A DNA stretch of 64,000 bases from Candidatus Omnitrophota bacterium (lineage in GTDB: Bacteria > Omnitrophota > Gorgyraeia > Zapsychrales > JANLHA01), in the NCBI GenBank assembly GCA_038222225.1, contig JBBRHV010000001.1, positions 13,864 to 77,863 of the forward strand, in the 5' to 3' direction. The position numbers and the translations under genes were made by a program. Each line of letters begins with the position of its first letter. The stretch's first letter is position 1. Under the pieces are notes generated by a model. That model was not told the DNA's origin, made no database searches, and saw nothing but the letters and a program-made list of their open reading frames with translations. Below are positions 5,719 to 63,100 of this stretch, piece by piece.

Positions 5719-5780
5719 TAATGTCCAAAAAATGAAAAATGTCCAATCAGAGAGATAAAAAAAGTTTTTAATGTCCAAAG
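5719..5780 (+). repeat. Three direct copies of (T)AATGTCCAA at 5719-5729, 5738-5747 and 5769-5780 in the leader of the giant gene. The reverse-complement TGGACA half-site recurs at 6011-6020, 6101-6107 and 6140-6146.
   Basis: Direct reading of the intergenic region. This is a candidate operator or iteron-like set of sites. Confidence 0.4.
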
Positions 5781-42100: not shown

Positions 42101-45100
42101 GTTCCCGGCTAAAGAGAGAATTCCTTACGGACGCATGTTCTCCGAAGGCAGAATGTATTATCTGTATACCTCCAAAGATTATAATGTTCATCCGAAGGTT
42201 GAGAACGAAGATGTCTACGGCTTAAGCATTCAGGTCGTGGATGCCACGGGCAAAGTGGTCCGTGATGAGCCGATCAGAAACCAGGGCCAGCTTAAGACTA
42301 TGCTCGGCGTTGGCGTTGAAGGGGTATTTAAGCTTTTTGAATTAGGGGCCAATGCCGATAACATTTATGTGACGATGGATGATAAACAGGTCTACGCGGT
42401 GGAATTAGGCGACACCAATGAAGCGATCAAGAAAGACAATCTTCCGCCGATACGGGAAGTTTCGGTCCGTCTCCAGCAGGATCCGAAGCCCGAACGCGTT
42501 GAGCAATTCGGCGACACGTTGATGAAGGCCGGCACGGAATATAAGATCTCCGTTGAAGACTTAAATAAATGGGTCCAATCTTTAAAAATCGAAGGATTGA
42601 ATTCAAAAGAGACAGCGGAATTGCTGGCCAATGTTAAGAAATTCGACGGCATTTCAAAGCACCGCACAGCAAAATCAGAGGCTGCCAATAAAGCGTATGA
42701 GATCTTAAAGAAGATGCAGGAGAACGCAGGCAAAGCAGCGTTCAATGCTCATGCCAAAGCTTTCAACCAGGTCATGCGCTCTCTGGCAGACCAGGACGAG
42801 AAGATGGTCTCGATGAACTCCTTAGAGCGCGTTCTGATCCTGGTTGCCCGCGACAGAGCCGCGGTCAACAACGAGACCGATGATGACGGCAGCAAGTTTA
42901 TGGCGTATCTCAAAGCGGAAGCCAAAAAGTACGGGTTCGGTAATGTGATCAAACGTGAGATCGCCGCCTACTTCGGACGCGCGACCGCTTCGATCTTAGG
43001 TAAGCCGGAGTGGCATAACAAAGAGATCGCTCAATTAGGCCAGGCCATCGATCGCAATATCAATCTGCAGGATCCGAATTTTATCTCCGCTGCTGACGCC
43101 TATGCATTAGACACAGAAGAAAAGCCGATCGGAGAGCGCATTCAATACATTGACAATCAATTAAACGGTTATACGGACGCAAATGGTGTCGAGCATGTCG
43201 GATTAAGTACGCGCAGAACACAGTTGGAAACGATCCGTGATACACGCGCTTGGGAGAATCCGGATGAAGAAGTGGATCTGCTGTTTGATTACGCAACAGA
43301 AGTTGTTCCGGGGATCGAAAGAAACCGCGCGCAGCTGCGGGAACTGCAAAACAACTCCTTGGGTTACTGGACGAGAGAAAATCAAAGAGCCCAAGCGATG
43401 CTGACAGACAGAAATTATGGAGGCGAATCGTATCGTGCGTATGTGACCTATACCCAGTCGATGATTGATATGGTAAATCGGGAGATCGCGCTAACACGGC
43501 AGGCATTAAGGATCCTCGAGCGGCACCAGAATGTTTATGTCGCGTTAGGTCAGAACGGCTATCAAGCAGCTGGATGGCAGAGCGCAGGCCGCTTGGTTCA
43601 GGATCAGATCGATATGGTTAATACGCAAATTAGCATTTTCAACGAACAGCGCACCATGCTGGTTGACGCACAAGAGGCCGGCACCATTCCTAATTTCAAG
43701 AAACTGAGATTGATTCCGTACAACCGCACAGATGACCTTCCGAAAGATGTCAAAACAATTCCTGAGACGTTTACCTGGTTAAGAGGCGAGCGCGATGAGT
43801 TCGGCAACCAGACTTCAAATGGACGCATAGACAATATCGCTAGAGATTACCAATACTTTACGGATGGTATTTTGCACACGTCAGGTCCGGACGGCATTTA
43901 CAGTCAAGACGTCGTCAATCTGGCCCGCGACTTCCAGAGAACATTGAGAGATCCGGATTATCAATACAGCAGAGGCGCCTGGCTGGATAATACAACCGTG
44001 ATTTCCGAATACGCATTATATAACGATCCGGAATTCGGGCTGCTTACTCAATTAAGCAGAGATACCGCTCTTCAGAACGGCACCTCAACGGAGACGCCGT
44101 TACAGGTTTTGGAACGCCAGCTTGCTTATCAGAGAAAATTGCAGCTCCTCTATCAGACCCGCGCCGACCTCCAGAATGATATGGCAGCCTTGATCGAAAG
44201 CGGCAATTACTACAGGACGCCGGAGATCGCCAATCGCATCAACAAGATCATTGATAATGAGCGTACATTTGCTTTAAATTCATTATCAACGGTTGAGAAA
44301 TTCAGCGGCGCCGGTAATTCGTTGCGCGAAATGAATGAGGCCTTAAGCAGCTTAAATGACGCCTTGGTCATGGAGCTGAATGAGAAGGCAGAGCTCAGCC
44401 AATACGCTCAGGCCGTGGAGGTGCTGGTCAAACAGGTTGGCAGCAACTTAGAGGATTACAGCAAGGCTTGGACGCAATTCAACGATCAGTTGCTTGCTAT
44501 ACGCGCTCAATTGGTTGCCAAGGTTCGGGCCAGCAACCTGGCCGAAACCGTGAAGCTTGAAAAGATCAAGAACATTGATCTGTTCCTGGCTAATCTTTCC
44601 GCGAAACACGCGCCGCAAAAAGATGTGTATGTGGCCGGTCGATATTTTGTTTACGGTGAGTCAGCTGGAAAAGACGCCATGCGCACCTCCGGCACCAACG
44701 AATCCGGAGACGTGGGTGCAGTGAAAGTGGCGCAGACAGGCGATTTCGCCACATACCGTCAGTTCAATTTAAGAGATGTGGCCAGCGGCAACATGATCCA
44801 TGTCGGCCAGGTTCAGTCAGCTGCTCCCGGCGCTGCTCAGAATTCTTATGCTGTCGGAATCATCAACCTGACGCCGGAAACTCAAAACAGCTTGTTCAAT
44901 ATTGGAGTTGGCCCGTCAAAGAGCTATCGTTATCTGCAGAGCGCTGACCCGGATAAAAAGGGTAAAGGCATGACCGAACACGCTGGATTGGTTTTCAGCG
45001 ATGTTGCTATCAGAGATGGAAAATTGACACTGACAGCCAGCGGCATCCTGAAGGCCAATGTCAACGGCGACAATGGAATGACCGGAGGCGTGACGGCCGG

Positions 45101-48100
45101 CGCATATTATCAGTTCAACGATCGCACCCAGGTCAAGCTTGAAATGGGTGTTAGCGGTTCCGGCCGCACAACAGATGCAGAGCTTACGGCGATCGACACA
45201 TTCACCGGAAAGCAAATTTTCAAGGATACCGTTAAGATCAATAACACCGACTGGTTTGATTATCAGAAGATGACCTTTACGCATGCCTTGAATAAAAATT
45301 TGTCGCTCCGCTTCTCCGGAAGCCGTGAATTTGAACAGGGCGCCATGGGCATTGCCGAAGATGTGACATCCTATTTTGGCACAATCGGGGCTGATTGGAA
45401 ATTCGGCGATCTTCTCATGAAGGACGACAAACTTCTGATTTCAGCGGATTATGGGTTTAACGCCAACCGTGAAGCCGGCGATCGCACTCGTCTCATGCTG
45501 CAGTATCAGCAATTCTATACCTCTGTTGGCATGTTCGGCGAGGCACTGTATTACAATGCCGGCATCAAGTTAACGGATTCCTTAGTCGCTGAATTCGGCC
45601 AGCAGAAGACCGGCGATCTTTACGGACGTTTAGGATATGATCACAGCGGTTTGCGTTGGGATGCCGGTCTTACTGGTCAGGGCCAGGTCAGCAGCGGATT
45701 AAAAGTAGACCTTTTGAATATGCCTGGATTCCTGACCAAGCTCTTTAAGATCGAAACACCGGAAAACTTCAAGATGCCGGAACTGCATACCCGCAAACTT
45801 CAGACATTACAGGAGAAGATCATCTTCGCTCCGTTGGCAGAGGCACAGCATCAGACGGTCCAGATGAACGTTAATAAGACGGAAGCCACCAAAGACATCG
45901 CTAAATATACAACGCTTGTCAACGCAGTGAATGGACATGATGTGATTCCCGGCCAGCATGCCATTGCCGCTGACATCAAGATTTTAACGGATCCGAATAT
46001 TTCAGCCGAGGCGATGCCGCTGTACGGTCCGTCACCATTTGGATTAACACAGGCGGATAAGACGTATACAATGCGCTTTGTTGATCTGACACCAGAACAG
46101 CTGACCAAATACGGCATCGGCAAATATCCGAAAGAAGAAAGATTCTACATCCGCAGCACTTGGATCGATGCGCAAGGCCGTACGCAATCATTCAGTCAGG
46201 AATTTGCCGCGCAAGGCCTGGTGATCTTAACCGAGAACATTGACAAGTTAAGCGTTGAGACTCAGAAGGCGCTGGGCACATACCGCAACATTATTCCGGT
46301 CAAGCTCACCAACGCCGGTTATGAAGCGACCAAGGACGCACGCTTCGGAATGGTCGCCGGGCAGACGATCACAGCTGAAGATTTCGCTCTTTGGCTAGAT
46401 AACACTGTTGATAATGGAACGATCTCAAGCCGCGTGATGAGCCAGGTTGATCCGAAGACCGGCGAACCGGCACGTCAGCTGTTCCTGGCCAAAGACGGCA
46501 AAGTCACATCCTTAGACCTTACGAAGGAAGGGTATGATGCGATCGATAAATACACTGAGAACAAAATTTTGGTTCCTGTGGAAAGCGGATTAACAGTATA
46601 TTTGACCGGTGCAGAAGCACTTCAGTGGATCTTGGATGGCAAGTTGATTTATATGAAAAATATAGATCCTAAGATTGACGCTACACATGTTTTAGCAACG
46701 GCTGATGGGAAATTAGTCGGTTACGGTGATGCCATTGTGAAAGGAAAGTATTTGGTTCCGGAAATCGAAGCGTTTATGAAGGACAAGGTCTTGGTTCCGT
46801 TAAAGGGCGTCCGGTCTTCAACAGCTTATTTAACCGGAGCAGAAGCACTTCAGTGGATCTTGGACGGCAAACTAATCTACATTGAAAATACAGATCCTAA
46901 TATTGATGCTACACATGTCTTGGCAACAGCTGATGGAGAGCTGGTCGGTTACGGAAATGCTTTGATTGACGCCGGTTATATGATTCCGGAAGTTGAAGAA
47001 TTCATGAAAGACAAGGTTGGAGTTTTGACCTCCGAAGGAAGCCGTTACTTGACAGTTGACCAGTTTGAAGCGCAGAAAGAGGCTTTGGATGCTGCTTATC
47101 GTCCGAATGCAGAAGGCAAGATGATCCTTTCAGTCCCGGCTCCGAAGCAGACAAAGTTTAGAGTAACCACTTTCGAATCTGAAGGAGAAAAATATGTCGG
47201 CGTCAAGCTTCCTACAGAGATCGAAAAGAGAAATAAGGCGATGGATGACGGGCGGGCATATTTTGAGAACGGCCAGTTCATTATCCAGGATGCCGGCAAT
47301 GAGGCCAATCGTATCGTCGGCACCATAGCCGGAGAAAAATTGCTTGAACCGGCAGCTTATGTCACAAAGGCGACCGTGCCGCAGATGAAGTATAAAGAGG
47401 GAGAACAGGTTTTTGTTAAGGGTAAGGGTTATGCATATTATGAGAAAACATTGACCGGGAAATATGAGCCGACCGCAAAAGTGATCTACAACGCCGAGAA
47501 AGACGCAAAGGTTCCGGGTTATCTACCGCTCAAGAGAGTTGTCGTGATCTTACCGAACAGAGCAGCGCAGATTGAAGGGGAACTCCTCTTGAACAAATTC
47601 GGAGCAGTGGAAATTAGCTCGATCCAAAAGAGATATTATTTTGTTATCGGTGAAGACAAAGTAGGCGCCTATGTTCCAGTTGATGAATTGGTCAACCGAC
47701 GCTCAGAATTTATAAGTAAAGTTCAAGAGATCGTTCGATATGGCGACACCTTAGAGCGAATCTATTTGGATGCCAGCGCAGCTGACGGTCAGGTGGATGA
47801 AAACGATAAAGTCACGATTGTACGCAGCAACAGCCGTACTGACATTTACCGATTAGGACAATATACTATCGACGCCAGTGGAAAACTCACCTTAACAGGT
47901 GATCCGATCGGCGAAGACCTTCTTCTTGCTCCTGAGGCGGATGGTTCGATTAAGGCTCAATTGATATATGGAATTCAGCCGTTCGTGATCCCGGCTGCGG
48001 AAGTTAAAAACAACACATATCATTTGAACAGAGATTTCTATTATCAGAGAGAAACCATCAATGTCTATAATGCTGAAGACAAGCAAATCCGACAGATCAT

Positions 48101-51100
48101 GCCGTTAAGCGATACGATTATTTATTTATCGCCAAAGGATGGTTATGCAACGCATGTGACAGATTTGAGCGGCAATCTCAGAATTGTTTCTCAGACAGTC
48201 GAACGAGTGGAGAATGGCGAAAAGGTCGTTGAGACAACAGATGTTCAGGTGGATGGGAAGAACAATGGATTCGCAATGGTCAAGAGGACCACCTATAAGA
48301 ACGGCGCATTGCGCGAGATTTTGGTCGGGGTTATGAAGCTTGCCAATAAATATGATCTGAGCCAGCCGTTCCCGACAGTTAAGCCGGAGATCTTCACGCT
48401 TAGAGATTCTTATTCTCAATCTGAGCGCAGAGTTGATATTCGAACCAACGGCGAATGGCATGAAGGATGGAGAATTTATGGAAAGATCAACAAGCATATT
48501 CAGCGGTTAGAGGCTCAGCAAACCCGGACAGTTGAAGAGGATCGACAGCTTGCAGCATTGCGACAGGCGCAGACATTTGTGGATAAATTCACTCCGTCGA
48601 CTAAAGAGGCCTTAGATGCGCTGGCTGGAAGAGGAATTCAGCTGAATGTTCAGTTAAGCCCGAAAAACAGCGTTGCTGTAAACAAAGACACAGTTCTTAC
48701 GCCTACGGTTGTGGTGTTCCCGAATCAGGTTATATCCATTGATTGGCGCTTAGATAACGATATTTTAAATCGCAAGCTTATCACTGTACGCGCAGCTCAG
48801 GGCCGTATTGTAGAGATGATTGTCGGAACCGAATTTGATCAGCGAAGCGGAGAGGTTACAAAGACGTATACATTGACATCCGACGCCCAGATCAAGAGCC
48901 GGTTTGAAACAGCTCCTGCTCCGGAAAGAGCTGACAATATCTTTACTGGGCTCATTGTTAAGAGCTTTGCAGAGGTTGCGCATAAGCGATTCTCGGATGA
49001 GACCGCTAACCTGTGGAAGTTCTTAGAATATCATGGCGTGTCTCAAGCAACGCCGCTGACAGTCTTAAAAGAAACACCATATTTACCGGATGAAACCGGA
49101 AGATATACAGAAAAAGAAGGCGCAGCAACAACGCATTATCTGATCCCGGATGACAGCCGCGGCCGAAGCTTGACTGTGGTTTATCCGACTGAAGATCAGA
49201 GTTTGAACTTATGGCAATTTGAAGGCCGGGAGGTTCGCATAACCAATGGTAAAGAGCGAAAAGTGACCTTCGGCGTCGGCGTCACTCCAGGAAACATCAC
49301 ATTTAAGAAGGACGGAAGCTTGCGCGGTATTGAAATCTATCACACAACCGTGCGCGAACAGCAGATCAATATTTCCTATACTCAAAAGGTCGTGGAAAAC
49401 GGCACGACTCATGAACGCGAATATACTGTTACGAAAGAAAAAGACGGGGCGCTTAAATTAGTGGTTAAGCAGGATGGAAACACGATCGCTTTAGCGGTTG
49501 GAAATGAATATGAGGTCCTGGACTCAGGCTTAAAGAAGAATGTTTTCTTTACACAGGGCGGTCAATTATTAGCAGAGAGCCATCAAAAGGTCGTTGGCCA
49601 GATCCTCAAAGAGATTTTGGGTGTTCAGGTTCTCGGCGAAAAGATCACGATCTATGATGTTCTTTCACCGTATAGACGTCCAGTGTTCTCGTTCGATCTG
49701 GAAGGCAATCTTGTAGACGAATATCTGGAGCAGGAGTTCAGCATCGGCGAAGAAGTGAAGCTTGATGGAACAAAGACATATGTTCAGAAAACAAAACTCC
49801 GCGTTATAGAGCCGGAAGGATACGCGCCGGATAAGAGGTATGAACAGGAATATCATTATACCGGCGACAAGATTGATTCCAAGGCGCGCCCGGGTCTGTG
49901 GCAAAAGTGGGCGGAAGATTCGTCTTCCTGGATGAATATTTCTAAATTGTGTGGCTTGTTTGTCTTCCTTGCTTTCGGTGTCGGCAGGCTTTGGTCCTGG
50001 ATCGGAAACATTGTCCGCTGGATCAAAGGTGTTAGAAAAGGTAAGACTCAGCCGGATTCAATTACACTGCAGTATACGCCTGAAGAGATCGAAGCGGTTC
50101 TTGAAGCGATCAAGAATCTGCCGGATTACGGATGGCAGTCTGGCATTGCGGATCAGGCCCGGGAAGCCGTTGGGGCAGAATTCAAACGAAGATTGTATGC
50201 CGGTGAGCGTGTGGAAGATATCGTGAAAGACCATTTCAGTTATTACAGAAAGAACTGGTTTATACCGGTCATGGGTAATACGAAGGATAAGGATGCGATC
50301 CTAACTGCGGATGAATTTAAAGCTCAGCTGGCTGAGATCGATGCCTATGGCGTTAAAGAAATGTACATCAATTCTATGACAAAGATCGGAGCAGATAAGC
50401 TGTCTTATGTATCTCTCTCCACGGGCGCTGCATTGTTCTGGATCGCTATGCAGAGATATAAAAAGGCGAGAGCTGATGGAGATAAGGTTGACGCGCCTGA
50501 CGCGCCGAGCGCTACCAATGCGAGCGTCAATCTCGGACATGAGATTGAATTTAAACATGTTGGAATATTCTCTAAGTTATTGACTCTTCATAATGGAAAG
50601 TCAAAAAGTGAGGCCATTCATCATGATGATATTGATTTGTATTTCAGGACACCAGGGTGGTTGAAGCGCTACATTACGCAAGACGATGATGGAGAGACGG
50701 GTAGAGATATCATTGCAAAAGAGGTTGCAGATCAGCTCTCTGGGGCTAAAAAGGTTGGAATCAATGAGATTCTATTGAAAGCCTATCCGGATGTCAAGAC
50801 CGGGTGGCGTGGTATTAAAGGACGGGCCCGTATGCTTACGACCATCTTGAAATATCTCAATGTCATCGTAGGGATAACCGCTATAGGGAGTTACGGGTTG
50901 GTTTGGAGCGGAACATTTTCATTGTCTGTGGCGATTTCTGCCAGCACTTTGGCCTGGTTGGGCGGACTTGTCATCTTCATTGCATTGTTGGTCGCGATCA
51001 ATTTCGGCATAAGATTTGCCGATAAAAAATGGCAAGAAAAGCTGACGTTAAAGGAACAGAAAACTTGGGATACAGTGCCTTTGGATGCAGGAATTAAGCC

Positions 51101-54100
51101 AGAAGATTATCCGAAAGGAACCAATGGACGCAACTGGCGGGCAAGGATGATTTTTGCCATTATTATAGGTATGAAGCTCATTGCGGGTCTTTATATGTTC
51201 AAGTGGTTATCTGTACCAGTTGGCATTGCCTGGAAAGGCACTGTGCTCTTGCCGGCAGTTCTGGGCGGAGGCACGTTGATCGGCGGAAACTTATTGATTG
51301 TGGGTCTGTTTGGAGTCGTTTTTGCTGGGATATTCCTGCTGGATATTTTTGCCTATTTCTATCTGGTCGAGACGGTGCTTGGGACTTGGATCGCCCGTTA
51401 TCAAGGGATCAATCGCGTGCATAGCTGGAGACGCAACTCGCTGAGCGAAGGCGCTTGGATGCTCTCTCTGTTTGGATTGCTCAAATGGGTCTTGCCGGTC
51501 AACGCCGCTCTTATTCAGCAGTATCTTTTGCTTGGTATTGGATATGTTGTTAAGAGCAGCACTGTCATTGCCTTCTTCAGTACACCGGTAGGCGGGGTCG
51601 TTATGGTTGTTGGTGTGGTCATCTTGCTATTGGCTTTAAGGGCTATTGTAAACGCAATTTTAAGTTCAATGGGATTTGAACGCATTGGGGGCGATACGTT
51701 TGTAGAAATGTTTGGTAAAGCGCAGAAACAATTTGCTAATAAAATTCTTCCGTCTTCGGTGGTCCGGCCGGATGGCACCAGGGCGGCATTGACAGCGCGT
51801 GAAAAGTTTGTGGCCTGGGTCAAGGCGTGGAACATGATCGTTCATCAGATGAGAGAAGATGATATTATCGGCGATGAAGAGGAGAAGAGATTAAGCTATA
51901 AGTTCACAGGAGAGTCTGAAGAGGATTTCTTGGAGATCACAGGTAAGATCACAGGGCCGGATCTGACGGTTACACCTAAAGACGGACGCGCACGCAAGCG
52001 CCTGCAGCATTTCATCTCTACCTTATTTATGGATATGGAGCAGACCCCGATTTGGGAGAGAATGTATTTGTTCTCTGCTGTGTGTCCAATCTTTGAAGAG
52101 CCGAATATGTATCCGTTTAAAGATAAGTCGGTTGGGGTTTACGATGCTATTAATGAAGTATACAAGACAGGAAAGACGTTCTTGACGCATATTATTTCAA
52201 AGGTTCCGCATCAGTGGCAGTATTTTATTCAGCGCATGGAAGACAAATTGCAGATTTTTACAGAAGAAATGACTGAAAAAGCAAAGACGAATCCGAAGAT
52301 CACTCAAGACATGATCGATGAGGCTGTCAGTCGTAAGCGGGATGATATTGCGGCCATGAAGGCGCTTGGTATGGGTCAGAGGCTGGTGCTTAAGGATACC
52401 GAGATGATCAATGAGGTCCGGGCCTGGGTCAGCTACCGCTTCCAGCCGTTCTCCCGTACAGCGCGCGGGATCATGACGTATCATCAAATGTATGAGTTCC
52501 AGGCTAAGGTCAATTATCCGACCGCAGAAGCTCTGAATGCCACACAGAAGATCCGGGGTGAGAAGCCGGAAGAAAAGAAGAAGAGTTACGTGCAGCGCAT
52601 TATAGACATTGTTAATGAGAAATTTGAATTTGTGGTTGGGGATTTTGTTTACGGGGGTCATCGGAATGGTACAGACGGATCTCCTGAAGCCATGCTCAGA
52701 GATGATATGCATGCGCTTATGGCCAAGTTCCCGGGAGGCATTAAGCTTGTGTATTGTGCAGCTCCAGATAAAAAGAACCCTAATTATGCACCAGTAAAAG
52801 TTGAGTATTTTGCAGGTGTTCCGACACAGGAAGATCGGGATGCCGGTGTGATTATGCATGAGTATGAGGATGAATATACTCATCAAATCACCGGATACTT
52901 GAAACAGGTCCGCGCCTTTAATATTCATAGTTATTTCTTTGCCGGCCAAGGAAAACCGGTCAACCAGAATAACATGTTCCGTTTCACCAAAGGTGAGATC
53001 ACGCAGATGATGGATATGAACCAGGATATGTATCTGGAGGAGACGTTTAAGGCGCCAAGCATGATGGAAGAGTTCCGTAAAGATCCTAAGATCGCGATCA
53101 TAGGGTTCCCTGAAGATATCTTTACAGATTACTTCAGCCCTGCCGGTGCTGTCCACGCCTTCGGAGATCGGACATTTGTCACCATGGTTCAGAGGGTCTT
53201 AGAGTTTATGGGGATCCGCTTCCATTACGGGCATCCGGACTTTGTCCGTACCAATGCCTTTAGACAGCTGGGCTTATTGAGCGCGCCGTGGGTGAACGAA
53301 GACATTTTTGGCGCGTATAAAGCCATGCTTTATGGGCAGAAAGTGATCAATCGCGAAACCATGCAGGCGGGTAAAGCGCGGGAAGCTATGTATATTGCTT
53401 TGATCGGTATTTCAGAAAAATTCGGCGCCGGCGGATCTGAACAGCCGTTGACATATATTGTTCAGCTCCTTAACCGTTCAGGCATTTTCGGATTTGCGCA
53501 AGGATTTATGCATGTGGTCGCGTCCATGGGTTATTTCTTGCGCAAGGAAGTCATCGTTCTGACAAATAACAACTATATTTTGATCCTCCTGTTCTTAGGG
53601 GTGAGCGCGTTTGCGGCCTTCCCGAACGAGTTGACATGGGGTCTGATTGGTTTATTGATGTCACAGGCCATTACCTCTACCGGATGGGCTCAGGTCTGTA
53701 TCGAAGATGGGTTGATTTTAGGAACTATTCGATTTATAAAATTGTTCCCGTCTTTGGCCATGACATACATGTCTTTGATTTATAACGCTTTTGCTCCGGG
53801 AAGCAGAAAAGCGTATGTGAATCAAGCCGGCTATGTGGCAACAGGTCGGCCTCCGGGGCTTCAGCACATGTATCCGTTCAGGCCGACGAACCATATTCTT
53901 GTTAAGTTAAGGGTCATTGCCGGCGATCTTTATGGACATGTAAACTTGAGCGGATATGCCTGGGTGGTTCCGATGGTCGCGATCTTAGTGAGCGGCCTTA
54001 TCTTGTGGCTGAATCCTGGTCAGGTGTATTCATTATTCTTTATTATGTTAATCCTGTCCAGTATGTTTGCTCCGTTTATCCTGAGCCCTGGTTCTACACC

Positions 54101-57100
54101 GATCACCATGGGTATCCGCCGTTGGTATAAACAGCATTTCACGGATGATGTTCCGAGATTCTTTGAGAAGATCGATAGTTTTGGGAAGGAGGACACCATT
54201 AAAGATGTCCTATTTTCTGGGAAAACCAAACCTGAGCCAGCTGGTTTTGAAATGAACAAAGAGTTCAAGAAAAACGGAGTACAGCATGTAACAATTAATG
54301 GCCAGGATCTTACAGTCGGAAAAGAGGTTTTAACGGTAATGGATGTAAACGGAGTTTCTGAACCGACCGGCTATAAGGTTAAGGAAATATTCAAGAATAA
54401 GGTGGTTCTCGAAAAAGGAAAAGAAGATTTTATTGTACACAGAATGAATGCTTATTATGGAGCCGCCAGAATAGTAATAGTGGCAGTTGTAATAGGAGCG
54501 GTGTGGCTTATTCCGGGCAATTACCTTTATATAGGAATTATTCTCTTCAGCATTTTCTACCTGGGGTTAGGCTTTGTTTCAGATGCCAAGAATCTTTGGG
54601 CTAAGATCTTAAAACTCAAAAATATTCAGAAGATTCTGAACCATCCAAAAGTTAAAAAGATCCGGGATGATCAAGCAAAGAAAGCCAAAGAGCGTAAGGA
54701 TGAGCTAGCAAACGGCAAAGAGCGCTCAACAGCTGAAAAGGTTCGGGATTTTCTGACATTACCGAAAGGTAAAACTTTACGGGATATTATTAATCTTTAT
54801 ATGACAGGCATCATTGTCATGTTGATGTTGACCGCGTTGGGGGTTGTTACATCGGTTATTGTTGCCGCTCCATATACGGCCGGGTTGTTTATTCGTGCTC
54901 AGATCAAGTTCTTACGTCTGCCGTCTTTGGCGAAGTTTGTCGGCTGGTCTTCTCTTGTTATTTGGCTAAGTAAGCTGGCTGTTCCGGCAATCTTATTATA
55001 CACAGGCGGGTTTGCGGCATTTTTGGCCGTGGTTGGGTTTGAGGTTATCATCGGATCCTTCGCATCAGGGCTGTTCACCGGAGAGGCCGAGGATGCACAA
55101 TTGGCCTTAGATATTCGTTCGCTCCATGAGGAAAAATCTCAGAGTGTAAAGGGTACAAACAGCGCGGTCTTGGCTAATCAGAAGAATGACGGCAAGAAAG
55201 ACCTCGCCCGCACTGAAGACGGCGAGGCATTGAATGACGGACAAGAAGCTTTCTTAAGAACATTGATCGATCAATATCAGGATCAGATCGCCGCGGGTGA
55301 GCCGGTCGATGCTGCGGTCATTGAGAAAATTGCCGCTCTCCTCAGAGAGCAAGGGTATGTTCATGTTGCCAATGCTCTTCTGAGTAAAACCGTTGTCCGC
55401 GGGCCTCCGTCATTGTTTACTGATTTTGAAGAAAGCATCCATAGAGTCCTTCTGGGTACTATCACAGGGACTCACATCATCATCAATCCGATGATCCTTT
55501 CTCATCCGGTGGAATTAGCCCGCACGATCATTCATGAAGCGGGTGCTTCTGCCGGGTTGTCCCATAACGAAAATAAAGAACTCGAAAAATTAGCGCATCC
55601 GCTTTTGGTGGCGATCGACGGCCTCTCAGCAACAGGGAAGTCCGCCGTTAGCGGTTATTTAAGCAAAGACCTCAAATTTGTCAATATCTCCATCGGGTTG
55701 ATCTACCGTTTCTTCGCCGCATTTATCAAACAATCCAATTTTGCGGTGCTCAGCGATCTCGAATTTGAGCAGCTCCGCGAGATGGCTGAAAAGATCAGCT
55801 ATGTGAAGAATGAAAACGGCGAGTGGAATTTTGTGGTTAACGGTCAGGTGATCAACAGCAATGATCCGGCGTACTTTAATCCGGAAATTGAGAAAGCACT
55901 CAGCGAGCATCTCTCCAAAAAACTCCATCCGTTAGTCCTTCCGGTGGCCAGAAGAGTTATCCGTCAGGTTTTGGCCAGCGGTGAGAACGTTGTTGTTGAG
56001 GGTAGGATTGCCTGTGATTATATCGCTCCATTTGCTGATGTGAAATTGAATATTGTTGCAGAATATTCTGTACGCGCGCAGAGACGGATGGAGCAGCGCA
56101 TCGCGCAGCATGGCATAGAGAAAGCCTATATGGATGCCATAGGCACCAAGAACGCGGCAGAATACCAGCAACGGGTGAGAATGGTCGCCCATGAAATTTA
56201 TGAAAAAAGTGGGCATAAGCCCGGGAATGACCTGGCCAATTGGGCGGAGGCGGAAAAGAGGGTCAGAGCTGAAATGGCTTCTAAGATCGAAGAGGGAGCA
56301 AGGACAGTGGAGGCGGAAAAGAGGGTCAAAGCTGAATTGGCTGCCAAGATTGAAGAAGGATTGCGGAGACGCGATAGAAAAGATCAGGAACATTTACCGA
56401 AAGCGCCAGTTCAGCCCGGTAATGTTGTTGAGATCGACACAACGCATGCCCATGGTTTGGATGAGACCATTAGCAAGGTTCAGAAAGTTATTTCTCAGGC
56501 CTATCTCAGCGGACGAACAGGCCTCAGCCCGCAAGTCGCAGAGGTGACGCAGCAATTAGCATCTTTGAAGGCAGGCGAAGCTATTCCAGAAAGCTTGAAA
56601 CAGGCCATTTTGAAGGTCTTGCCGGTGATCGGTGAATTGAGCGAAGCCAAGATCGTTCACACGTTCCGCAATCTTGAATATCTGCACAGATTAGCAGCGC
56701 AGGATTTTGATTATTTCTACGATCACTTAAGCGAGCAAGAACGCGCCACGGTTGAACGGGCAGAATATGTGGCAGCGTTACAGAGCATCTATAAAGCGTA
56801 TGCAGCGTTAAGCGCACAGGAAAAAGAAGCGTTATGGCTGACTGTCGCGCTTCATGACATCGGATATATCCGTGTTAAGGACCATACCCACATGAGAGTC
56901 GGGGCTGAGATGGCTCGCCCGATTTTGGAAAACATCGGATTGAACCATGAGCTGATCGACCTTGTGGTCTTTACAATCAGCCAGCATGGTTCTATCGGAA
57001 ATTTGGCCCTGGGTGAAACAACTCCGAAGACAATGTTAAAGGCTTTAAGCGCCGTCAGCCCGGCTCTTCGGGCTGGACGTGCCCGGTTTGTCCGCCTCAT

Positions 57101-60100
57101 GAACAGCATGGATCTTTGCGGGTGGCATGTTGAAGAAAGCCGCTTGACGCTTTATTGGCAGAAGATTTTTGAACAATTCAGCTCAATCGCTCAATTAGAA
57201 GCCGCGGCACAGGCTGGAAATTATCATACACATCGTTTAGAGAAGTTCGCCCGCACAGAATTCGAAAAACAAGCCACACCGGAAGATCTTGAGAGATTAA
57301 ATCAGACTATCGAAAAATTAGTTTCTGAAGATGAGCGAGAACAATTCTATGCATGGCTCAATTCAGATATGTACATGGATTATTATGAGCCTATTTTCTG
57401 GGGCTTAAATCAAGGTGATCCGTCATATGTATCGCTGGTTAAGTTATTAAGGACATATTTCCACATTACAACTTCATTGAACGGGAAAATGCCAGAGCTT
57501 CGTCTCTGTGAGATCACGACAACCTTCCGGGAAATTTCTTCAAGTATGAAACGGCAGTATATTATTAAAGAACTGAAGGCGATTTTGGCGCTGATGCCCG
57601 AGCAGTTCACATTGAGTGATGCTACGGTCCATTTGTCAGGCAATAACTGGGTCCGGTTCTTTGGAATTCCGCTGATTCTGAGGGGCCAGTGTCTTGTGAT
57701 CGACTTCCAGTATCTTCACTTCCGTGTTTTATTGTTCAAGCTGCGCGAAAGAGTTGGTCTCAAGCGCGGGTTCTCCCGTAAAACCGGATGGCAGGTTGAA
57801 GAAGCGGCCATGGATTTCACAGGCCAGCAGCCGCTTGTTGAATCAACATCGGAAACAGCGATGGAACGCGCGCAAAAAGCGCATACGGTTATCAGCTGGA
57901 TCTACAGCAGCCATGAAGCCTGCAAGGCATTTGTGCAGTATCTTCGCGGATATGCTGTTGGGCACACATACCGCAATCGATTGATGCCGTTGTATTTTAC
58001 TGTTTATAATTTCTTGGCAGGCCGGGCATTGAACGACCGGAGGGTCTTGTCTGCGGTCGAAGCAGATTTGTTAAAAGGCAATGTCACAGTTCATCATCAC
58101 GCATGGTTCGGAAGCGATGATGTGGCGGTATCCAGAAGTAAACATGGTTCAGCGGTCAATGTGGCTCAGCCAGCTAAACGCACATTCCGTATTTTGGTTA
58201 TGGGTTGTGCCGAGAAACCGAATGGGCGCGGATCGTTGGATGTCCTGAAAGAGATCCTGGACAGGCTGCCGAACCGGTCTGAATATAATATTGAGATCGT
58301 CGGAAATGACATCGCCTTCCAGGAAGAGTTTTACGCATTCAATGACAAAGGGACATGTTTAGGAAAGCGCCATACGCGTTTTGAATTTGATGAAAACGGC
58401 GTTTTTGTTGACCCGAATTCCGGGATCAGGTATGTCCGTATTGATATTACGAAACCGGAAAACAATCTGTTAAGTGGAGAATTTACGCCGGACAGCGGGT
58501 ATGATGTTGTCATCAACTCAAGAATTGCAGTTCAATATGGGGATTACCCGGATAAAGTCGAGAGCATCAGAAAGAATTCATTGAAGATTATTAATGAAGG
58601 CGGGCTGCTCCTGTTTGATACGCAGGATACTGACCATGCCGAAGTTTGGACAAAGGGAAACAACGGCGAAGCAATTCAAATTGGGTTTGCTGTTCCGTAT
58701 ATTGATATTTGGTCAGAGAGCAAGCGCGTTGAGAAGATCCTGGCTCGTATCTATGATGTCAATGGGGAAGATGCCGAACTTGTTCGCCAGGCATTCCACA
58801 TGAGGCTCGCATTTGCCGGGACACAAGGTTTAGTATTCGCGAGGAGCATCCTGGCTCAATTCTTGGGGATCTTTGGGGAGCAGCCGATTGCAATTGCGGC
58901 ATTCCTGTTGCGCGGGATCAGTATGGAAGCTGTTCAAGAGGTTTTTGGAGAGCAAACAGCGGCACAGATCGCGGCGATCAATGGGCTTATTCCTGCAGCC
59001 GATGAAGTCGTGATCTCAAGGCAAGCGTTGTGGGCATTTGAGAATTTCAACAGCCTTGAGCATGTGGAGATCCTTCCGGCCAACGTCGGCGTATTGGAGA
59101 ACCGTCAGATGTTGTATCGTGACGGGTTGTATCAGATTGAAGCTGCTACCGTCGGTGAAAAAATGGTTTTGATTATAAGCAAAGTTACGCCGGAGCAAAT
59201 CACATCCAAGATCATTGCGTTGCATGGTGAATATGCGGTTAAATATCAGAAAATGATCGGTGCGACAAACAGCGCGGTTCTGTCAAGCCAGAATGATGAG
59301 AGCAGCGCCAAGGTCATGGATGCCGATGCATGGGCACTTGATGCTAAGAACGTGTTTGAAGATGCTATCCGTAGTCTGATCGCTAAAGCCAGCCAGATCA
59401 TTCGCTGGTTAAAGATCAGACTCTATGTGACAGACCGTAGCGACAAAGTAGTGGCTAAAGAACAGCAAAGAGTTGAAGAGATGCCGTTAGCCGCAGCCGA
59501 ACCTCAGAGACCGAATCGCGTGGGTTCAGTGGTTCATACGTCAAGTTCGCATGAACAGAATCCGAACATGGCTGTTTGGAGACAGTATTTCGAAGGCAAA
59601 CTTGCGGCAGGTACAAACGCAGCTGTTTCCGCGCCTGACCGCATGGGCAAAACAACTGCCGATTATGAAGCTGAATTTGCTGCACGGTTCAATGATGCAA
59701 CCGACGCTGCATGGCAACAATTCCGCGCCGCGGTTGAAGCCAGCCCGGCTGATTATGCTCCTGTCTGGGTGAAGATTTTAGAGAAGGCAAAAGCAGGTAA
59801 GTCGGTGGAAACCGGTAAAGTGGTTGAGTTTGGAAAAACAGTTGAGTTGGTTGAGTTGGGCAAAGCAGTTGAGTGGGCTGGATCAAATGCAGCGGTTAAT
59901 TTGGTAAAGGCAGAAGATGTAATCGTTCGGTTTGACCGGTTCGCATTCTGGGTTTATGGCGCTACTCAATGGCTGAAGATCGCGCTTCATGTGACCGATT
60001 ACAGCGATCGGGCCGTGGCTAAAGAACAGGTTCGCGTGGAAGAGTCCCAGCTTCAACCGACCGGTCCGCCGGTTGGCTCCATGAATGTTAATCGTTTGAG

Positions 60101-63100
60101 TCGTAAAGGTTCAGTGGTTCATACATCAAGCTCTGATGTGCAGAACCCGAACCTGCCGGTTTGGAGAGGTTATTTCGAAGGCAAACTCTCCGCAAGCACT
60201 AACGCCGCCGTTCTTTCATCTGACCGCATGGGCAAAACCTCCGTTGATTATGAAGCTGAATTTGTTGCACGGTTCAATGATACAACCAACGCTGCATGGC
60301 AGGAATTCCGCGCCGCGGTTGAAGCTCATCCGGCAGAATATTCTTCTGTCTGGACAAAGATCGCAGAAAAAGCAAAAGCAGCCAAGGCGCAGGCAGAAAA
60401 GCCGGTTGAGTCGAAAGGAACAGTTCAAACGGTTGAGTTGGGAACGGCAAAAACTCTAAACGCTGCGGTATTATCCCGCCGTAATTTCATTCAGAGCATC
60501 GCGGTTGCAGGTGCTGCGATTTTAGCCGGCGGATGCGCTTCGCCTACGGAAAAAATGCTTCGCGGATGGTCCAATCTTTCCATTGAAGAGCAGCGCAAAC
60601 AGATCGAGGGTATGAAGGCGATCGCCAGTGAATTTAAGGCCAAGGATACCCGTGAATTTCTAACAGAACCAGCTTTGAGGTTCCTGGAGACTCAAGCCAA
60701 GATTTCACGTAAAGACGCACTGTCTATTCGCATTCTATTCACGTCTGATGAGATGTCATCGGTAATCGGGGTGTCGACTGACGCAGGAACGATGACGCGC
60801 GCGAAATTGGGAGAATTAAGGAATCGTTTCTTAAGACATGTTCCGTCAATGAGGGCTGAGTGGCAGGAAGCCTTTGATCTGATGGAACAAAATATTTTTG
60901 ACGGTCGGGATGTGGTGGTTGTTCTCAGGGAAAGTTTATTTGATACAGAGGCCTTGGATGACTTTAGAATTGCTCAGGTTGTTCACGAAGCTGTGCATTG
61001 GGCGCAATTCACGTTCCGCAGTAAAAAGATGGGCCTGTCCTTCGGGAGGGGTGCTGAAGAATATCTCGAGCTTGAAATTGAGAAGGAAGCCTACGCGCTG
61101 CAGATGCTGTATTTGGCAGGGCGCGGAAAAACCTGGGCAACAATAGCCGTATTTTTCGCCGGAGATGCTCCGAGCGGAAAGGCGGAGGTTGACGGGCCTT
61201 TGGCCGCGGAATTTGAACAGACCCGGTTTGGGCACGGATTGAAACAAATTTGGGATACGCGCGTTGCGCCGAAACTTTCGTCGGGTAAAGCGGTTGAGTC
61301 GGAACCGACCAATTCCGCGGTAAGCACATTTGTAGTACAAACCAAAAGTCCGGTGCTAGGTACACAGGGACGAAACCAAACCGTCAAAGACGGTCAGTTG
61401 TTCAATGTCACGCAGCGTTGGCTAGAGCCGCTTGTTGATGAAGGGGCGACAACAGGCGATTCGCTTGAAGCCAACGCTGCGGTGACGAACTATTTTGAGC
61501 GTTCTTCTGACAGCATGACCTTCTCAGGAAAAGGGCGAGTTGTTCCGGCAAGAACGCGACAGCTTCCGCAGACAATTGAAGAAGATATGCTGCCGGCCTT
61601 GCCGGCCTCAAGTTTACCGGAAAATACGCCGGTGCGCGAGCTTCCGGCAATCCCGAGCTTACCAATAAACATTCAGTTGATCGTGCCGGTGTTTGGCGGC
61701 GCTAACGGAAATGGAAATGGAAAAAGAAGAGGTGGTCCGTATTCGATGATCGCCTTTGCCAGGACATTGGGCGGTTCACGCGCGAATTTAAGAGCTCCGC
61801 GCAGCTTGAATGCTGATAATTTTGGAAAACGACATTTGGTCAATTCGGCTCTAAGAGCCTCAGGCCGTAATTTTGCTTCAACAGGTTTGAGTGACGTGGC
61901 GCATGGCTCAAATGGCGACGATGCTAATAGCGCTGTTACAAATAGCGACGAAGATTCGGATGCAGACGCTGCCACGGGTGCGTCCAACGTCGAAGGTGTG
62001 CGCGCGGTAAGAGAGCGGCGGTTCAATGTGGCTTGGTTGAGTTCACGTTCATTTGTCGCTGAACATAAGGATGGAACATGGGCTATTGTTTTTGAGGACG
62101 ATCTATTTTATGGCGTGGTCGGCAACACGATGCTCGACACTGTTAAATTCCTCCAGAGTGCCGGATTCAAGAACGCGATGGTGGTGGATGCGGGCAGCCG
62201 CGGAGCGTTTACCGCCAAAGGAAAAGAAGGGGCTCTCTTTAGTGAATCGCGCGTTCCGGGCAAGGGGCCGTACACATATTTGAATGTCCTGTCGAACCAT
62301 GATTTCCCGAAGACTCCCGCACCGTCACAGAAACCGGTCGGGAAAAATCATGCCGTACTCCATGGCGGTCAAAACGAGAAGCGAAAATCAGCTGCTGCAT
62401 TCAGCAAGGGCGCAGCAGTCATATCCGGGACCAACGCTGCTTCACACAATCATCACCGGAATAAAGGGTCAAAGGATAAAAAGGGGATTCAGGCTAGGGC
62501 AGTTTCAGATAAGAGATCATCAGCGAATAATCCTCGAAACATGGGTCGCCGCAACTTTATCCGAAATGCACTGTTGGCGGGCGGGGCCGCGGGACTTGGG
62601 TTTGGCGCCTGGTTCTCCTTGCGAGGACGCGCGTTTGATCCTCTGTTCTGGAAGGCCTTTGGTTTGAAGAAGGATCTCGCGCTGTTAATAAAGTATTTGG
62701 AACAGGTCGGCGAATGGTTGCGTTATAACGGTTATGCGCACATGGATGTTGTTGAAGCGTATCTTCAGGCCGTCCGTGAAAAAGCCGAAGTCATTGATCT
62801 CAATATCGGAAGTCAGGTTTTTGGAAAGGCCGAGGATCCTGTTAGCGGAGACATTCATATTGAATTGAATATCGGGTCATTGTTCCGTATGGCCGAAGCG
62901 GTTCAGACCATTTCTAAAATCGCCCAGCGTGAGCAGGGGGCTGGCGCCGCAAACGATACGACCATGTTTGTGCAGGTGATTGTTGAATCGTTGGTCCGTG
63001 AAGCCTGGGGTTATGACCTGATGGTGCGCAACCGTCCCGGACGCAAGCAGTTCGTGAACGTCTTTAATGATCTCCGGCTAAAGATTCAGGAAGCGGACCG

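What the first reader, a model, noticed from the sequence alone, without database searches (positions are those of the whole stretch)
60466..62615. Two twin-arginine signal-peptide-like segments buried in the middle of the giant ORF
LSRRNFIQSIAVAGAAILAGGCASP (Tat motif plus a lipobox-like LAGGC) lies at 60466-60530. MGRRNFIRNALLAGGAAGLGFGAWFS lies at 62541-62615 and begins with an in-frame ATG. Both look like bona fide N-terminal Tat signal peptides, yet they sit more than 18,000 residues into the polypeptide with no stop codon before them. There are three explanations. They could be formerly independent secreted genes, including an HExxH protein, fused into the megagene. They could be internal translation-initiation products. 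Or they could be cleavage-liberated N-termini that are then Tat-exported. All three would be unusual.
Basis: partly seen in the sequence, partly recalled or inferred. Interest (0 to 1): 0.8.

Follow-up and report, generated by a model that had tools for sequence, protein, structure and literature searches.

The report
Export signals inside a bacterial polyprotein
Two export-signal-like segments deep inside a giant Omnitrophota gene each sit downstream of a short motif (T-N-x-A/S-V-L) that recurs between gene-sized protein modules, which suggests the giant protein is cut into many separate proteins, some of them then exported.

Summary
Both segments are real and in frame. They lie at 60471-60545 and 62541-62618 in a stop-free frame of 19,305 codons (6084-63998).

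The gene is an Omnitrophota giant gene. It has an N-terminal C39 cysteine-peptidase head and lies next to Tad/T2SS-F genes.

The most over-represented short pattern in the ORF is T-N-x-A-V-L (8 observed, 0.03 expected). It is conserved as protein, not as DNA. It recurs in two other Omnitrophota giant-gene fragments and brackets gene-sized modules such as CoaE, GNAT and methyltransferase.

The first Tat segment starts 2 residues after such a junction. It passes TIGR01409 and ends in a lipobox using one of only 16 cysteines. Against a 58%-identical orthologue it shows 11 synonymous and 2 non-synonymous codon changes.

The second segment's whole module is absent from that orthologue, with the indel ending at junctions on both sides.

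Best reading: a processed polyprotein in which cleavage exposes N-terminal Tat, lipoprotein or anchor signals. Cleavage, the protease and the organism's Tat genes are all unproven. Internal initiation is not supported.

The parts
6126..63998 (+). Giant ORF. The frame is stop-free from 6084. The likely start is ATG 6126 (MNDRMDI...), which aligns with the N-termini of homologues. It runs off the window's 3' end and encodes more than 19,290 aa.
   Evidence: Homologues are named Candidatus Omnitrophota.
6639..7073 (+). C39-type cysteine peptidase domain. Gln186, Cys194 (6663-6665), His279 (6918-6920) and Asp295 (6966-6968) are invariant in 9 sequences. One TM segment precedes it and 4-5 follow.
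   Evidence: Pfam PF03412 scores 35 bits against a cutoff of 22. Alignment A2. AF2 core pLDDT is about 90. Foldseek top hits are the LahT150 double-glycine protease 6mpz and the PCAT1 and ComA peptidase domains, TM about 0.7.
27102..34190 (+). Cluster of eight strong junction motifs (N-[SAGP]-A-V, mostly T-N-x-A-V-L) at 27102, 27888, 30006, 30876, 32637, 33105 and 34179, plus a weak one at 28533. They delimit modules of about 150-700 aa, including GNAT and alpha/beta-hydrolase modules.
55158..60212 (+). Junction motifs at 55158, 59268, 59616, 59886 and 60201. Those at 59616 and 60201 arise from 6-aa insertions in both tandem copies of a conserved VTDxSD...GSVVHTSSSHEQ module.
60459..60470 (+). 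Junction motif N-A-A-V (context TL-NAAV-LS) immediately upstream of the first Tat segment.
   Evidence: The orthologue has TNSAVL-VSRRNF at the same place.
60471..60545 (+). Tat1: a twin-arginine and lipoprotein-type signal, LSRRNFIQSIAVAGAAILAGG|C. RR is at 60477-60482 and the lipobox Cys18151 at 60534-60536.
   Evidence: TIGR01409 scores 19.7, above the 16.7 cutoff. 25/26 residues are identical in L002, with 11 synonymous and 2 non-synonymous changes.
60537..61310 (+). Predicted mature part of the Tat1 module, about 258 aa. It carries HEAVH at 60984-60998 and a downstream EKEAY. Function is unknown; a putative metallo-enzyme.
   Evidence: There is no Pfam or PDB match. The AF2 model is unusable at pLDDT 44.5.
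61311..61322 (+). Junction N-S-A-V (PT-NSAV-ST). It is conserved as ST-NAAV-MA in the orthologue while the flanks differ.
61473..61484 (+). Junction N-A-A-V (EA-NAAV-TN), conserved in the orthologue.
61926..61937 (+). Junction N-S-A-V (DA-NSAV-TN), conserved as GT-NSAV-TN in the orthologue.
62346..62357 (+). Junction N-H-A-V-L, which opens the Tat2 module. It aligns with AT-NPAV-L in the orthologue.
62358..63737 (+). Tat2 module, 460 aa. It is bounded by junctions on both sides and is absent as a block from the orthologue L002. A 28%-identical homologue of it sits in the unrelated long protein P0010, bounded there by RSELR motifs.
62541..62618 (+). Tat2: MGRRNFIRNALLAGGAAGLGFGAWFS, followed by the basic stretch LRGRAF. 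It has the twin-arginine consensus and an 18-residue uncharged h-region, but no AxA or lipobox. It is more likely an uncleaved signal-anchor.
   Evidence: TIGR01409 scores 14.5, below the 16.7 cutoff. RR plus a hydrophobic segment is retained in P0010 (TRRAVIKWAVAGG...).
63738..63749 (+). Junction T-N-P-A-V-L, which closes the Tat2 module.
63795..63860 (+). Third signal-anchor-like segment, GRSFVRTVFALIIAGVLLVVGT, starting 15 aa after the junction. The orthologue has GRRYSVRTVFGAAIIGMLLVAGG, which contains RR.

Best explanation
The window carries an Omnitrophota giant gene that behaves like a polyprotein. It is a string of gene-sized modules: enzymes, membrane proteins and small peptides. The modules are separated by a short junction motif conserved at the protein level, consensus G-T-N-[S/A/P]-[A/S]-V-L-S.

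I infer that these junctions are endoproteolytic processing sites. The leading candidate protease is the conserved C39 (double-glycine-type) peptidase at the head of the same protein. If so, it would most plausibly cut after the small-small pair, N-[S/A]-[A/S] | V-L.

After cleavage, each module would carry its own N-terminus.

The first segment (60471-60545) would then be a genuine N-terminal twin-arginine lipoprotein signal. The 280-aa HExxH module would fold in the cytoplasm, be exported by Tat, and be lipidated and trimmed at Cys18151.

The second segment (62541-62618) would be the N-proximal twin-arginine signal-anchor of a 460-aa cassette. The third segment (63795-63860) would be the anchor of the next module.

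Shown: the motif, its enrichment, its conservation at orthologous positions, module-sized spacing, cassette indels that end at junctions, constraint on the Tat/lipobox block, and the C39 fold and catalytic residues.

Inferred: that cleavage happens, which bond is cut, which protease cuts it, and that Tat export follows.
For: 1. An unbiased gapped k-mer scan ranks TN.AVL first in the ORF: 8 observed, 0.03 expected, Poisson 5e-17. N.AV occurs 28 times against 7 expected.

2. All synonymous codons are used at the invariant N, A and V positions, so selection acts on the peptide, not on the DNA.

3. The same motif is enriched in two independent Omnitrophota assemblies. In L002, TN.[AS]V occurs 11 times against 0.15 expected over 4,599 stop-free codons. 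In L004, N.[AS]VL occurs 13 times against 0.15.

4. All five junctions in the 60.4-62.4 kb region are conserved at orthologous positions in L002/P0001, while their flanks diverge.

5. Junction-bounded modules are gene-like. A 210-aa module covers positions 2-178 of the 180-position CoaE profile. Modules of about 200-300 aa carry single GNAT or methyltransferase domains. One 354-aa module holds an Abhydrolase_6-like match, though at 21.4 bits it is below the 26.3 cutoff.

6. Modules behave as cassettes. The Tat2 module (aa 18771-19216) is missing in L002, and the Tat1 module is missing in L004. For Tat2 the indel is bounded by junction motifs on both sides.

7. The Tat2 module's homologue in P0010 is bounded by a different recurrent 5-mer, RSELR, which occurs 8 times in 2,686 aa.

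8. Tat1 begins 2 aa after a junction, passes TIGR01409 and uses a rare Cys as its lipobox. It is the most constrained block of its module, with 11 synonymous and 2 non-synonymous changes.

9. Other RR-plus-hydrophobic segments lie 15-20 aa after junctions in L002 and L004/P0011.

10. The three hydrophobic segments in the window tail all have the more positive flank on the N-side. No credible helix lies between them, so they cannot all keep that orientation in one uncut chain.

11. The C39 head has an invariant Q/C/H/D set and a PCAT/LahT-like fold.

12. West-Roberts et al. (bioRxiv 10.1101/2023.11.21.568195) proposed C39/S8 processing but stated that cleavage points were unknown.

13. tatA and tatC KOs are listed for at least two Omnitrophota genomes in the Seymour et al. 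source data.
Against: - There is no direct evidence of cleavage.
- By the positive-inside rule, applied by eye to the head sequence printed, the first TM (basic N-flank RPFKSRFK) would place the C39 domain on the outer face of the membrane. There it could not reach cytoplasmic junctions. The identity of the protease is therefore weak.
- C39 enzymes classically cut after Gly-Gly following a helical leader. This motif is different.
- Hydrophobic segments are not significantly enriched within 60 aa downstream of junctions in a crude test: 7 of 53 against 4.9 expected, p = 0.22. Most modules look cytoplasmic.
- Some signal-like segments, such as L002 LRTIMVAAFAVFGMPLTAAGQA, have no nearby junction.
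- Long stretches have almost no junctions (aa 90-3071, and 10134-16358 with only one). Some junctions were inserted inside a conserved module.
- Tat2 is below both curated HMM cutoffs and lies 63 aa from its junction.
- The Tat-like pattern alone is only marginally non-random, P = 0.064.
- Tat, Lgt and LspA genes were not checked in this genome.
Confidence: 0.55

Rival explanations
1. The giant protein is never cut. The segments are ordinary internal transmembrane or start-transfer helices of a huge polytopic membrane protein. The arginines simply follow the positive-inside rule, and T-N-x-A-V-L is a structural inter-domain linker. A variant of this reading has an internal twin-arginine motif directing Tat-dependent insertion of a downstream helix in an uncleaved chain, as in actinobacterial Rieske proteins (from my own knowledge).
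For: The ORF has many clustered TM helices (38 hydrophobic segments). The 2026 Omnitrophota preprint treats internal signal-peptide calls as chunking artefacts and models these proteins as single membrane proteins. Tat2 has no cleavage site and is flanked by basic residues on both sides. The enrichment of hydrophobic segments after junctions is not significant.
Against: - The Tat1 h-region is short (about 14-17 residues), rich in Ala and Gly, and weakly hydrophobic (KD 1.65, against 1.8-2.8 for the clear TM helices).
- It ends in a conserved lipobox Cys within a protein that is 0.08% Cys.
- Three successive segments with the same N-in charge bias cannot all be satisfied in one chain.
- A pure linker does not explain an invariant N/A/V core across unrelated module pairs, or the lineage-specific alternative motif RSELR around the same module.
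Confidence: 0.2
2. The segments are evolutionary fossils. They were signal peptides of once-independent secreted genes that were fused into the megagene, and they no longer function.
For: Modules are gene-sized and move as cassettes between lineages. A Met is retained two to four residues before the RR in both the window and the P0010 homologue (NPRNMGRRNF against KNRNMEPTRRAV). This could be a relic start codon.
Against: The Tat1 signal block is the most constrained part of its module: 11 synonymous and 2 non-synonymous changes, against 8-15 non-synonymous elsewhere. A dead signal should decay faster than the mature domain. RR plus an h-region is retained at 28% identity in P0010.
Confidence: 0.08
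3. Internal translation initiation produces separate proteins starting at or near the signals, for example at ATG 62541.
For: The second segment begins with an in-frame ATG. The homologous position in P0010 also has Met.
Against: - There is no start codon at or just upstream of Tat1 in the window (GTA TTA TCC CGC CGT).
- There is no Shine-Dalgarno-like sequence within 30 nt upstream of 62541, whereas the two upstream genes have one.
- Initiation does not explain the protein-level junction motif.
- It would not free the C-terminal ends of modules, because there are no stop codons.
Confidence: 0.05
4. The junctions do separate the modules, but not through a dedicated protease. Either the invariant Asn cleaves its own peptide bond by succinimide formation, as asparagine peptide lyases do, or the nascent chain is released co-translationally by a 2A/StopGo-like skipping event.
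For: Asn is the only strictly invariant polar residue of the motif. Some junctions read N-P-A-V, which superficially recalls NPG|P and N|PTH. P0010 has a junction-like motif but no recognisable peptidase domain.
Against: Known Asn lyases need a surrounding fold that positions the Asn, whereas here the flanks are unrelated and look disordered. 2A needs about 18 conserved upstream residues and is known only on eukaryotic ribosomes (my knowledge). A conserved, catalytically intact C39 domain is present at the head of this protein class.
Confidence: 0.1

Closest known systems
Omnitrophota giant genes with an N-terminal C39 peptidase (West-Roberts et al. 2023, bioRxiv 10.1101/2023.11.21.568195; Seymour et al. 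2023, PMC10066038; 2026 preprint 10.64898/2026.06.07.730766)
   Same: - The ORF exceeds 19,000 codons.
- All named homologues of the head and tail are Omnitrophota.
- It has a C39 head next to TM segments.
- It carries GNAT and other enzyme domains and many TM helices.
- Type II/Tad secretion genes (two T2SS-F genes) lie immediately upstream.
- Post-translational cleavage has already been hypothesised for this class.
   Different: Those papers state that cleavage points are unknown. They do not mention any recurrent junction motif, twin-arginine signals or lipoboxes. One of them explicitly discards internal signal-peptide calls as artefacts.
Viral polyproteins (picornavirus, potyvirus, nidovirus) processed by an encoded cysteine protease at a short recurrent site
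   Same: One ORF carries many unrelated functional units. It encodes its own papain-like or cysteine protease. A short, lineage-specific motif sits at unit boundaries, and units are gained and lost as cassettes.
   Different: This is a cellular bacterial gene of more than 58 kb. Its modules include membrane proteins and proteins with their own export signals. Cleavage is not demonstrated.
PCAT / AMS ABC transporters and LahT-type C39 double-glycine proteases
   Same: The fold and the Gln/Cys/His/Asp catalytic set match. The domain is membrane-tethered. If the cut follows [S/A]-[A/S], the small-small P2-P1 pair resembles GG/GA/GS.
   Different: No ABC transporter domains follow the peptidase. 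The substrate motif lacks Gly-Gly and the amphipathic leader helix. The predicted topology may put the domain outside the cytoplasm.
Tat-dependent lipoproteins and uncleaved twin-arginine signal-anchors (for example Rieske proteins)
   Same: The S-R-R-x-F-I-[Q/R] motif, an Ala/Gly-rich h-region of low hydrophobicity, a lipobox Cys in Tat1, and a basic 'Sec-avoidance'-like c-region in Tat2.
   Different: The signals are encoded more than 18,000 codons from the start codon. They would become N-terminal only after proteolysis.

Membership tests
Twin-arginine (Tat) signal peptide | S/T-R-R-x-F-L-K-type motif followed by an uncharged h-region of at least 13 residues | tested here: met
   SRRNFIQ with a 22-residue uncharged run, and GRRNFIR with a 19-residue run.
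Twin-arginine (Tat) signal peptide | Score above the curated HMM cutoff (TIGR01409 16.7 bits; PF10518 22.7 bits) | tested here: inconclusive
   Tat1 scores 19.7 on TIGR01409 (passes). PF10518 gives 18.5 (fails) for a query spanning both segments, matching residues 1-20 = Tat1. Tat2 scores 14.5 on TIGR01409 (fails). L002 Tat1 scores 16.6, which is borderline.
Twin-arginine (Tat) signal peptide | Located at the N-terminus of the exported polypeptide | tested here: not met
   As encoded, both lie more than 18,000 residues inside the ORF. The feature would be met only after the inferred cleavage. Tat1 would then have RR at positions 3-4, and Tat2 at positions 64-65 from its junction.
Twin-arginine (Tat) signal peptide | Tat translocase (tatA/tatC) present in the genome | not tested
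   The window holds no tat genes. K03116 and K03118 are listed for two Omnitrophota genomes in the Seymour et al. source data, but not for this organism.
Bacterial lipoprotein signal (lipobox) | [LVI][ASTVI][GAS]-C directly after the h-region, with an invariant Cys | tested here: inconclusive
   The window has L-A-G-G-C and L002 has L-A-S-G-C. The -1 Gly, the small -2 residue and the Cys are conserved, but -3 is Ala rather than Leu (relaxed pattern only). The Cys is 1 of 16 in 19,305 aa. Lgt and LspA were not checked.
Peptidase C39 (double-glycine leader peptidase) | Pfam PF03412 above cutoff, a papain-like fold, and the conserved Gln/Cys/His/Asp set | tested here: met
   35 bits against a cutoff of 22. 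The residues are invariant in 9 sequences. Foldseek top hits are 6mpz, 7n87, 4ry2 and 5xe9.
Peptidase C39 (double-glycine leader peptidase) | Fused to an ABC-transporter TMD and NBD, and cleaves after Gly-Gly in a helical leader | tested here: not met
   No ABC domains appear in the Pfam scans of the ORF. The candidate substrate motif is T-N-x-A/S-V-L, with no GG.
Omnitrophota giant gene | ORF over 20 kb in an Omnitrophota genome, with multiple TM helices and a secretion or pilus locus nearby | tested here: met
   The stop-free frame is 57.9 kb. Homologues are named Candidatus Omnitrophota. There are 38 hydrophobic segments. Two T2SS-F genes lie upstream.
Proteolytically processed polyprotein | Several unrelated gene-sized units in one ORF, an encoded protease, and a recurrent short motif at unit boundaries | tested here: met
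   (domains). (protease). (motif). (cassette indels).
Proteolytically processed polyprotein | Demonstrated cleavage products | not testable with these tools
   This needs proteomics or biochemistry.

The most novel reading that the evidence does not exclude
Omnitrophota giant genes are true cellular polyproteins. One >58-kb ORF replaces an operon-like set of dozens of genes. A protein-level junction motif (T-N-x-A/S-V-L) is cut to release cytosolic enzymes, membrane proteins and small peptides. It also releases proteins whose Tat, Sec or lipoprotein signals become active only after cleavage. Other bacteria use the same design with a different junction (RSELR in P0010). If so, junction motifs allow giant proteins to be cut computationally into their real products.
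Probability: 0.45. Interest if true: 0.9.

Novelty: new variant of a known kind. Interest (0 to 1): 0.8.

Why it matters
Whether bacterial giant proteins of 20,000 to 147,000 aa act as single molecules or are processed is an explicit open question in the two giant-gene papers. Both say no cleavage sites are known.

A concrete, conserved junction motif makes the question testable. One can search metaproteomes for neo-N-termini at the motif, or assay the C39 domain on junction peptides. The motif also gives a rule for splitting these proteins into units for structure and function prediction.

Export signals that work only after proteolysis would be a mode of protein targeting not described for bacteria. 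They would also overturn topology models that treat internal signal-peptide calls as artefacts.

Tried and rejected
The frame was corrected.
- The homologue search for the Tat2 module in the 5.8-billion-protein index found nothing. The exhaustive HMMER search found only distant P0010 and P0014.
- The AF2 model of the Tat1 module from a 2-sequence alignment was unusable (pLDDT 44.5), so no fold search was run on it.
- PDB sequence searches of both mature modules gave nothing meaningful. Pfam and NCBIfam gave no family for either module.
- A crude hydropathy test for enrichment of hydrophobic segments after junctions was not significant (p = 0.22).
- A DNA-level recombination-site explanation for the motif was rejected, because every synonymous codon is used at the invariant residues.
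- An N-glycosylation sequon was rejected, because the +2 position is mostly Ala.
- Resemblances to prepilin-peptidase, signal-peptidase I and rhomboid sites were considered from memory and do not fit the motif.
- Literature searches for polyprotein, twin-arginine or TatC together with Omnitrophota found nothing relevant.
- The genome and metagenome scans each returned only one related locus. Generality therefore rests on three Omnitrophota lineages plus P0010.
Full report
**1. Checking the observation**

The window holds one stop-free frame from 6084 to 63998. It spans 19,305 codons and runs off the 3' end. In that frame both quoted peptides are present:
- LSRRNFIQSIAVAGAAILAGGCASP at 60471-60545 (aa 18130-18154, counted from 6084).
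- MGRRNFIRNALLAGGAAGLGFGAWFS at 62541-62618 (aa 18820-18845).
- HEAVH at 60984-60998.

On pattern alone it is only marginally beyond chance. A TatP-like regex plus an uncharged hydrophobic run gives 2 hits, against a mean of 0.39 in residue shuffles (P = 0.064).

NCBIfam TIGR01409 scores the first segment at 19.7 bits (cutoff 16.7) and the second at 14.5. Pfam PF10518 stays below its cutoff.

**2. What the gene is**

Pfam finds a Peptidase_C39 domain near the N-terminus. Further along it finds GNAT, M23, a 1,3-beta-glucan-synthase-like region, cytidylate kinase, DUF2934 and HD, plus a sub-threshold Abhydrolase_6 match. Two T2SS-F (TadB/C-like) genes lie just upstream.

All named homologues of the head and tail are from Candidatus Omnitrophota. 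This is therefore one of the Omnitrophota giant genes described by Seymour et al. (PMC10066038) and West-Roberts et al. (bioRxiv 10.1101/2023.11.21.568195).

The latter note C39 or S8 domains and propose cleavage. [quoted passage not shown] A 2026 preprint suppresses internal signal-peptide calls as artefacts. Neither paper mentions a junction motif, Tat signals or lipoproteins.

The head domain has invariant Gln186, Cys194, His279 and Asp295 across nine sequences. Its AF2 core has pLDDT of about 90. Its best PDB matches are the LahT150 double-glycine protease and the PCAT1 and ComA peptidase domains.

**3. The junction motif**

While reading the tail I noticed that N-x-A-V recurs. N.AV occurs 28 times against 7 expected, and TN.AVL 8 times against 0.03.

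An unbiased scan of all gapped 3- to 6-mers ranks TN.AVL first, with Poisson 5e-17. The consensus is G-T-N-[S/A/P]-[A/S]-V-L-S. All synonymous codons are used at N, A and V, so the constraint is on the peptide.

The first Tat-like segment starts two residues after such a motif (TL-NAAV-LSRRNF). The second lies inside a 460-aa stretch bounded by NHAV-L and TNPAV-L. A third signal-anchor-like segment (GRSFVRTVFALIIAGVLLVVG) follows the latter junction by 15 residues.

**4. Comparative evidence**

*L002, the orthologous tail.* The genome scan returned L002, from Omnitrophota MAG RA.bin146. It is 13.8 kb of stop-free frame.
- TN.[AS]V occurs 11 times against 0.15 expected.
- All five junctions between 60.4 and 62.4 kb are conserved at orthologous positions, while their flanks diverge.
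- The Tat1 block is 25/26 identical, with 13 identical codons, 11 synonymous and 2 non-synonymous changes. Every other 26-codon block of the module has 8-15 non-synonymous changes.
- The lipobox Cys is conserved. It is one of only 16 Cys in the window's 19,305 residues.

*L004, a third lineage.* The metagenome scan returned L004, which contains P0011. It is 4,289 stop-free codons, with N.[AS]VL 13 times against 0.15 expected.

*Modules look like genes.*
- A 210-aa module in L002 covers CoaE profile positions 2-178 of 180.
- L004 modules of 197-300 aa each carry one GNAT or methyltransferase domain.

*Modules behave as cassettes.*
- The Tat2 module (aa 18771-19216) is absent from L002, and a single TNPAV-L there aligns with both flanking window junctions.
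- The Tat1 module is absent from L004.

*Other signals after junctions.*
- L004/P0011 has RTNASVL-KDPEKHEKRGSFRNKRRFISAVLAVLGVASVLF.
- L002 has TNPAVL-...GRRYSVRTVFGAAIIGMLLVAGG.
- L002 also has a Sec-like KRISIIAAAFFISSFSAMA|QV about 40 aa after a junction.

*A different motif around the same module.* The exhaustive HMMER search found a 28%-identical homologue of the Tat2 module inside P0010. P0010 is a complete 2,686-aa protein of unknown taxon.
- The module retains RR plus a hydrophobic segment (TRRAVIKWAVAGG...).
- It is bounded there by a different recurrent 5-mer, RSELR, which occurs 8 times at spacings of 200-430 aa.
- The same module flanked by two different lineage-specific motifs argues that both motifs mark unit boundaries.

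**5. Mechanism**

I read the giant ORF as a polyprotein whose junctions are processing sites. Cleavage would make Tat1 an N-terminal twin-arginine lipoprotein signal for a 280-aa HExxH module. It would leave Tat2 and the third segment as N-proximal signal-anchors.

Topology gives some support. The three hydrophobic segments in the tail all carry the more positive flank on the N-side, and no credible helix lies between them. One uncut chain could not satisfy all three.

The candidate protease is the C39 head. A cut after the small-small pair (N-[S/A]-[A/S] | V-L) would resemble the GG/GA/GS specificity of that family. This is inference, not a result.

**6. Caveats**

- No cleavage is shown.
- The positive-inside rule, applied by eye to the head sequence, would put the C39 domain outside the cytoplasm. 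That conflicts with cytoplasmic processing before Tat export.
- The motif is not Gly-Gly.
- Hydrophobic segments are not significantly enriched after junctions overall (p = 0.22).
- Long regions have few junctions.
- In the window, junctions were created by 6-aa insertions inside a conserved module.
- Tat2 is a sub-threshold residues from its junction.
- Tat genes were not checked in this genome. tatA and tatC KOs are listed for two Omnitrophota genomes.

**7. Rival explanations**

- *Uncut polytopic protein with ordinary internal helices.* This is the main rival, at about 0.2.
- *Fossil signals.* Disfavoured by the strong constraint on the Tat1 block.
- *Internal initiation.* Disfavoured: Tat1 has no start codon, and there is no Shine-Dalgarno sequence before ATG 62541, although the two upstream genes have one.
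- *Asn self-cleavage or StopGo-like release.* These are alternative ways to separate modules and cannot be excluded.

**8. Verdict**

The giant gene class and the idea of processing are already known. The junction motif, its cassette behaviour, and the Tat/lipoprotein signals placed directly behind junctions are not in the searchable literature.

I rate this a new variant of a known kind, with high interest. It turns an open question into specific, cheap tests.

Noticed in passing
L003:10001-18061 (protein P0010, Logan SRR33452767 contig, 68 kb): A complete 2,686-aa protein of unknown taxon carries the 5-mer RSELR eight times at spacings of 200-430 aa. Three copies are followed by RR or hydrophobic signal-like segments. 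One of those segments heads a homologue of the window's Tat2 module. This looks like a second polyprotein-like design with a different junction motif and no recognisable peptidase domain.
   Followed up: partly
window 6084-63998, compared with 2-3262: The giant ORF is extremely poor in cysteine (16 of 19,305 residues, 0.08%). The upstream ORF, which runs in from the 5' edge (2-3262), is conspicuously Cys-rich and lacks the junction motif.
   Followed up: no
window 6345-6365: Right after the first TM helix, all nine head homologues conserve Y-N-P-x-V-L-W, which resembles the junction motif T-N-P-A-V-L. It could be a first self-processing site or a pseudo-substrate of the adjacent C39 domain.
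   Followed up: partly
window 59400-60450 (aa about 17780-18125); L002:400-1340: A tandemly duplicated conserved module (W-L-K-x-x-L-x-V-T-D-x-S-D ... GSVVHTSSSHEQ-PN ... YFEGKL ... DRMGK) is shared by three Omnitrophota lineages. A diverged third copy lies at aa 8815-9033. In the window only, both tandem copies carry a 6-aa insertion that creates a TNAAV junction inside the module.
   Followed up: partly
window 61938-62345, compared with L002:2795-3784: The phosphodiester glycosidase (NAGPA, PF09992) module is truncated in the window. About 200 aa, including its N-terminal TM anchor, are present in L002 and missing here. Only the C-terminal ~110 aa remain.
   Followed up: no
window 36708-36773: A Sec-type signal-like segment, KGKLLAVAALFVFAPATAVA|GP, has a basic n-region, an h-region and A-V-A. 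It sits about 75 aa after a weak junction (NRAV at 36480) and opens a cluster of TM helices.
   Followed up: no
window 5720-5778: Three direct copies of AATGTCCAA lie at 5720, 5738 and 5770, in the AT-rich intergenic region upstream of the giant gene. The window has 4 copies in total, against 0.67 expected. They may be regulator-binding sites.
   Followed up: partly
window 55737-55748: A junction-like N-F-A-V-L-S lies inside the Pfam cytidylate-kinase match (aa 16509-16679). Either it is a chance match, or the kinase-like region is split there. The 1,366-aa stretch from 55170 to 59267 holds several domains (CMK, DUF2934, HD) with no strong junction between them.
   Followed up: no
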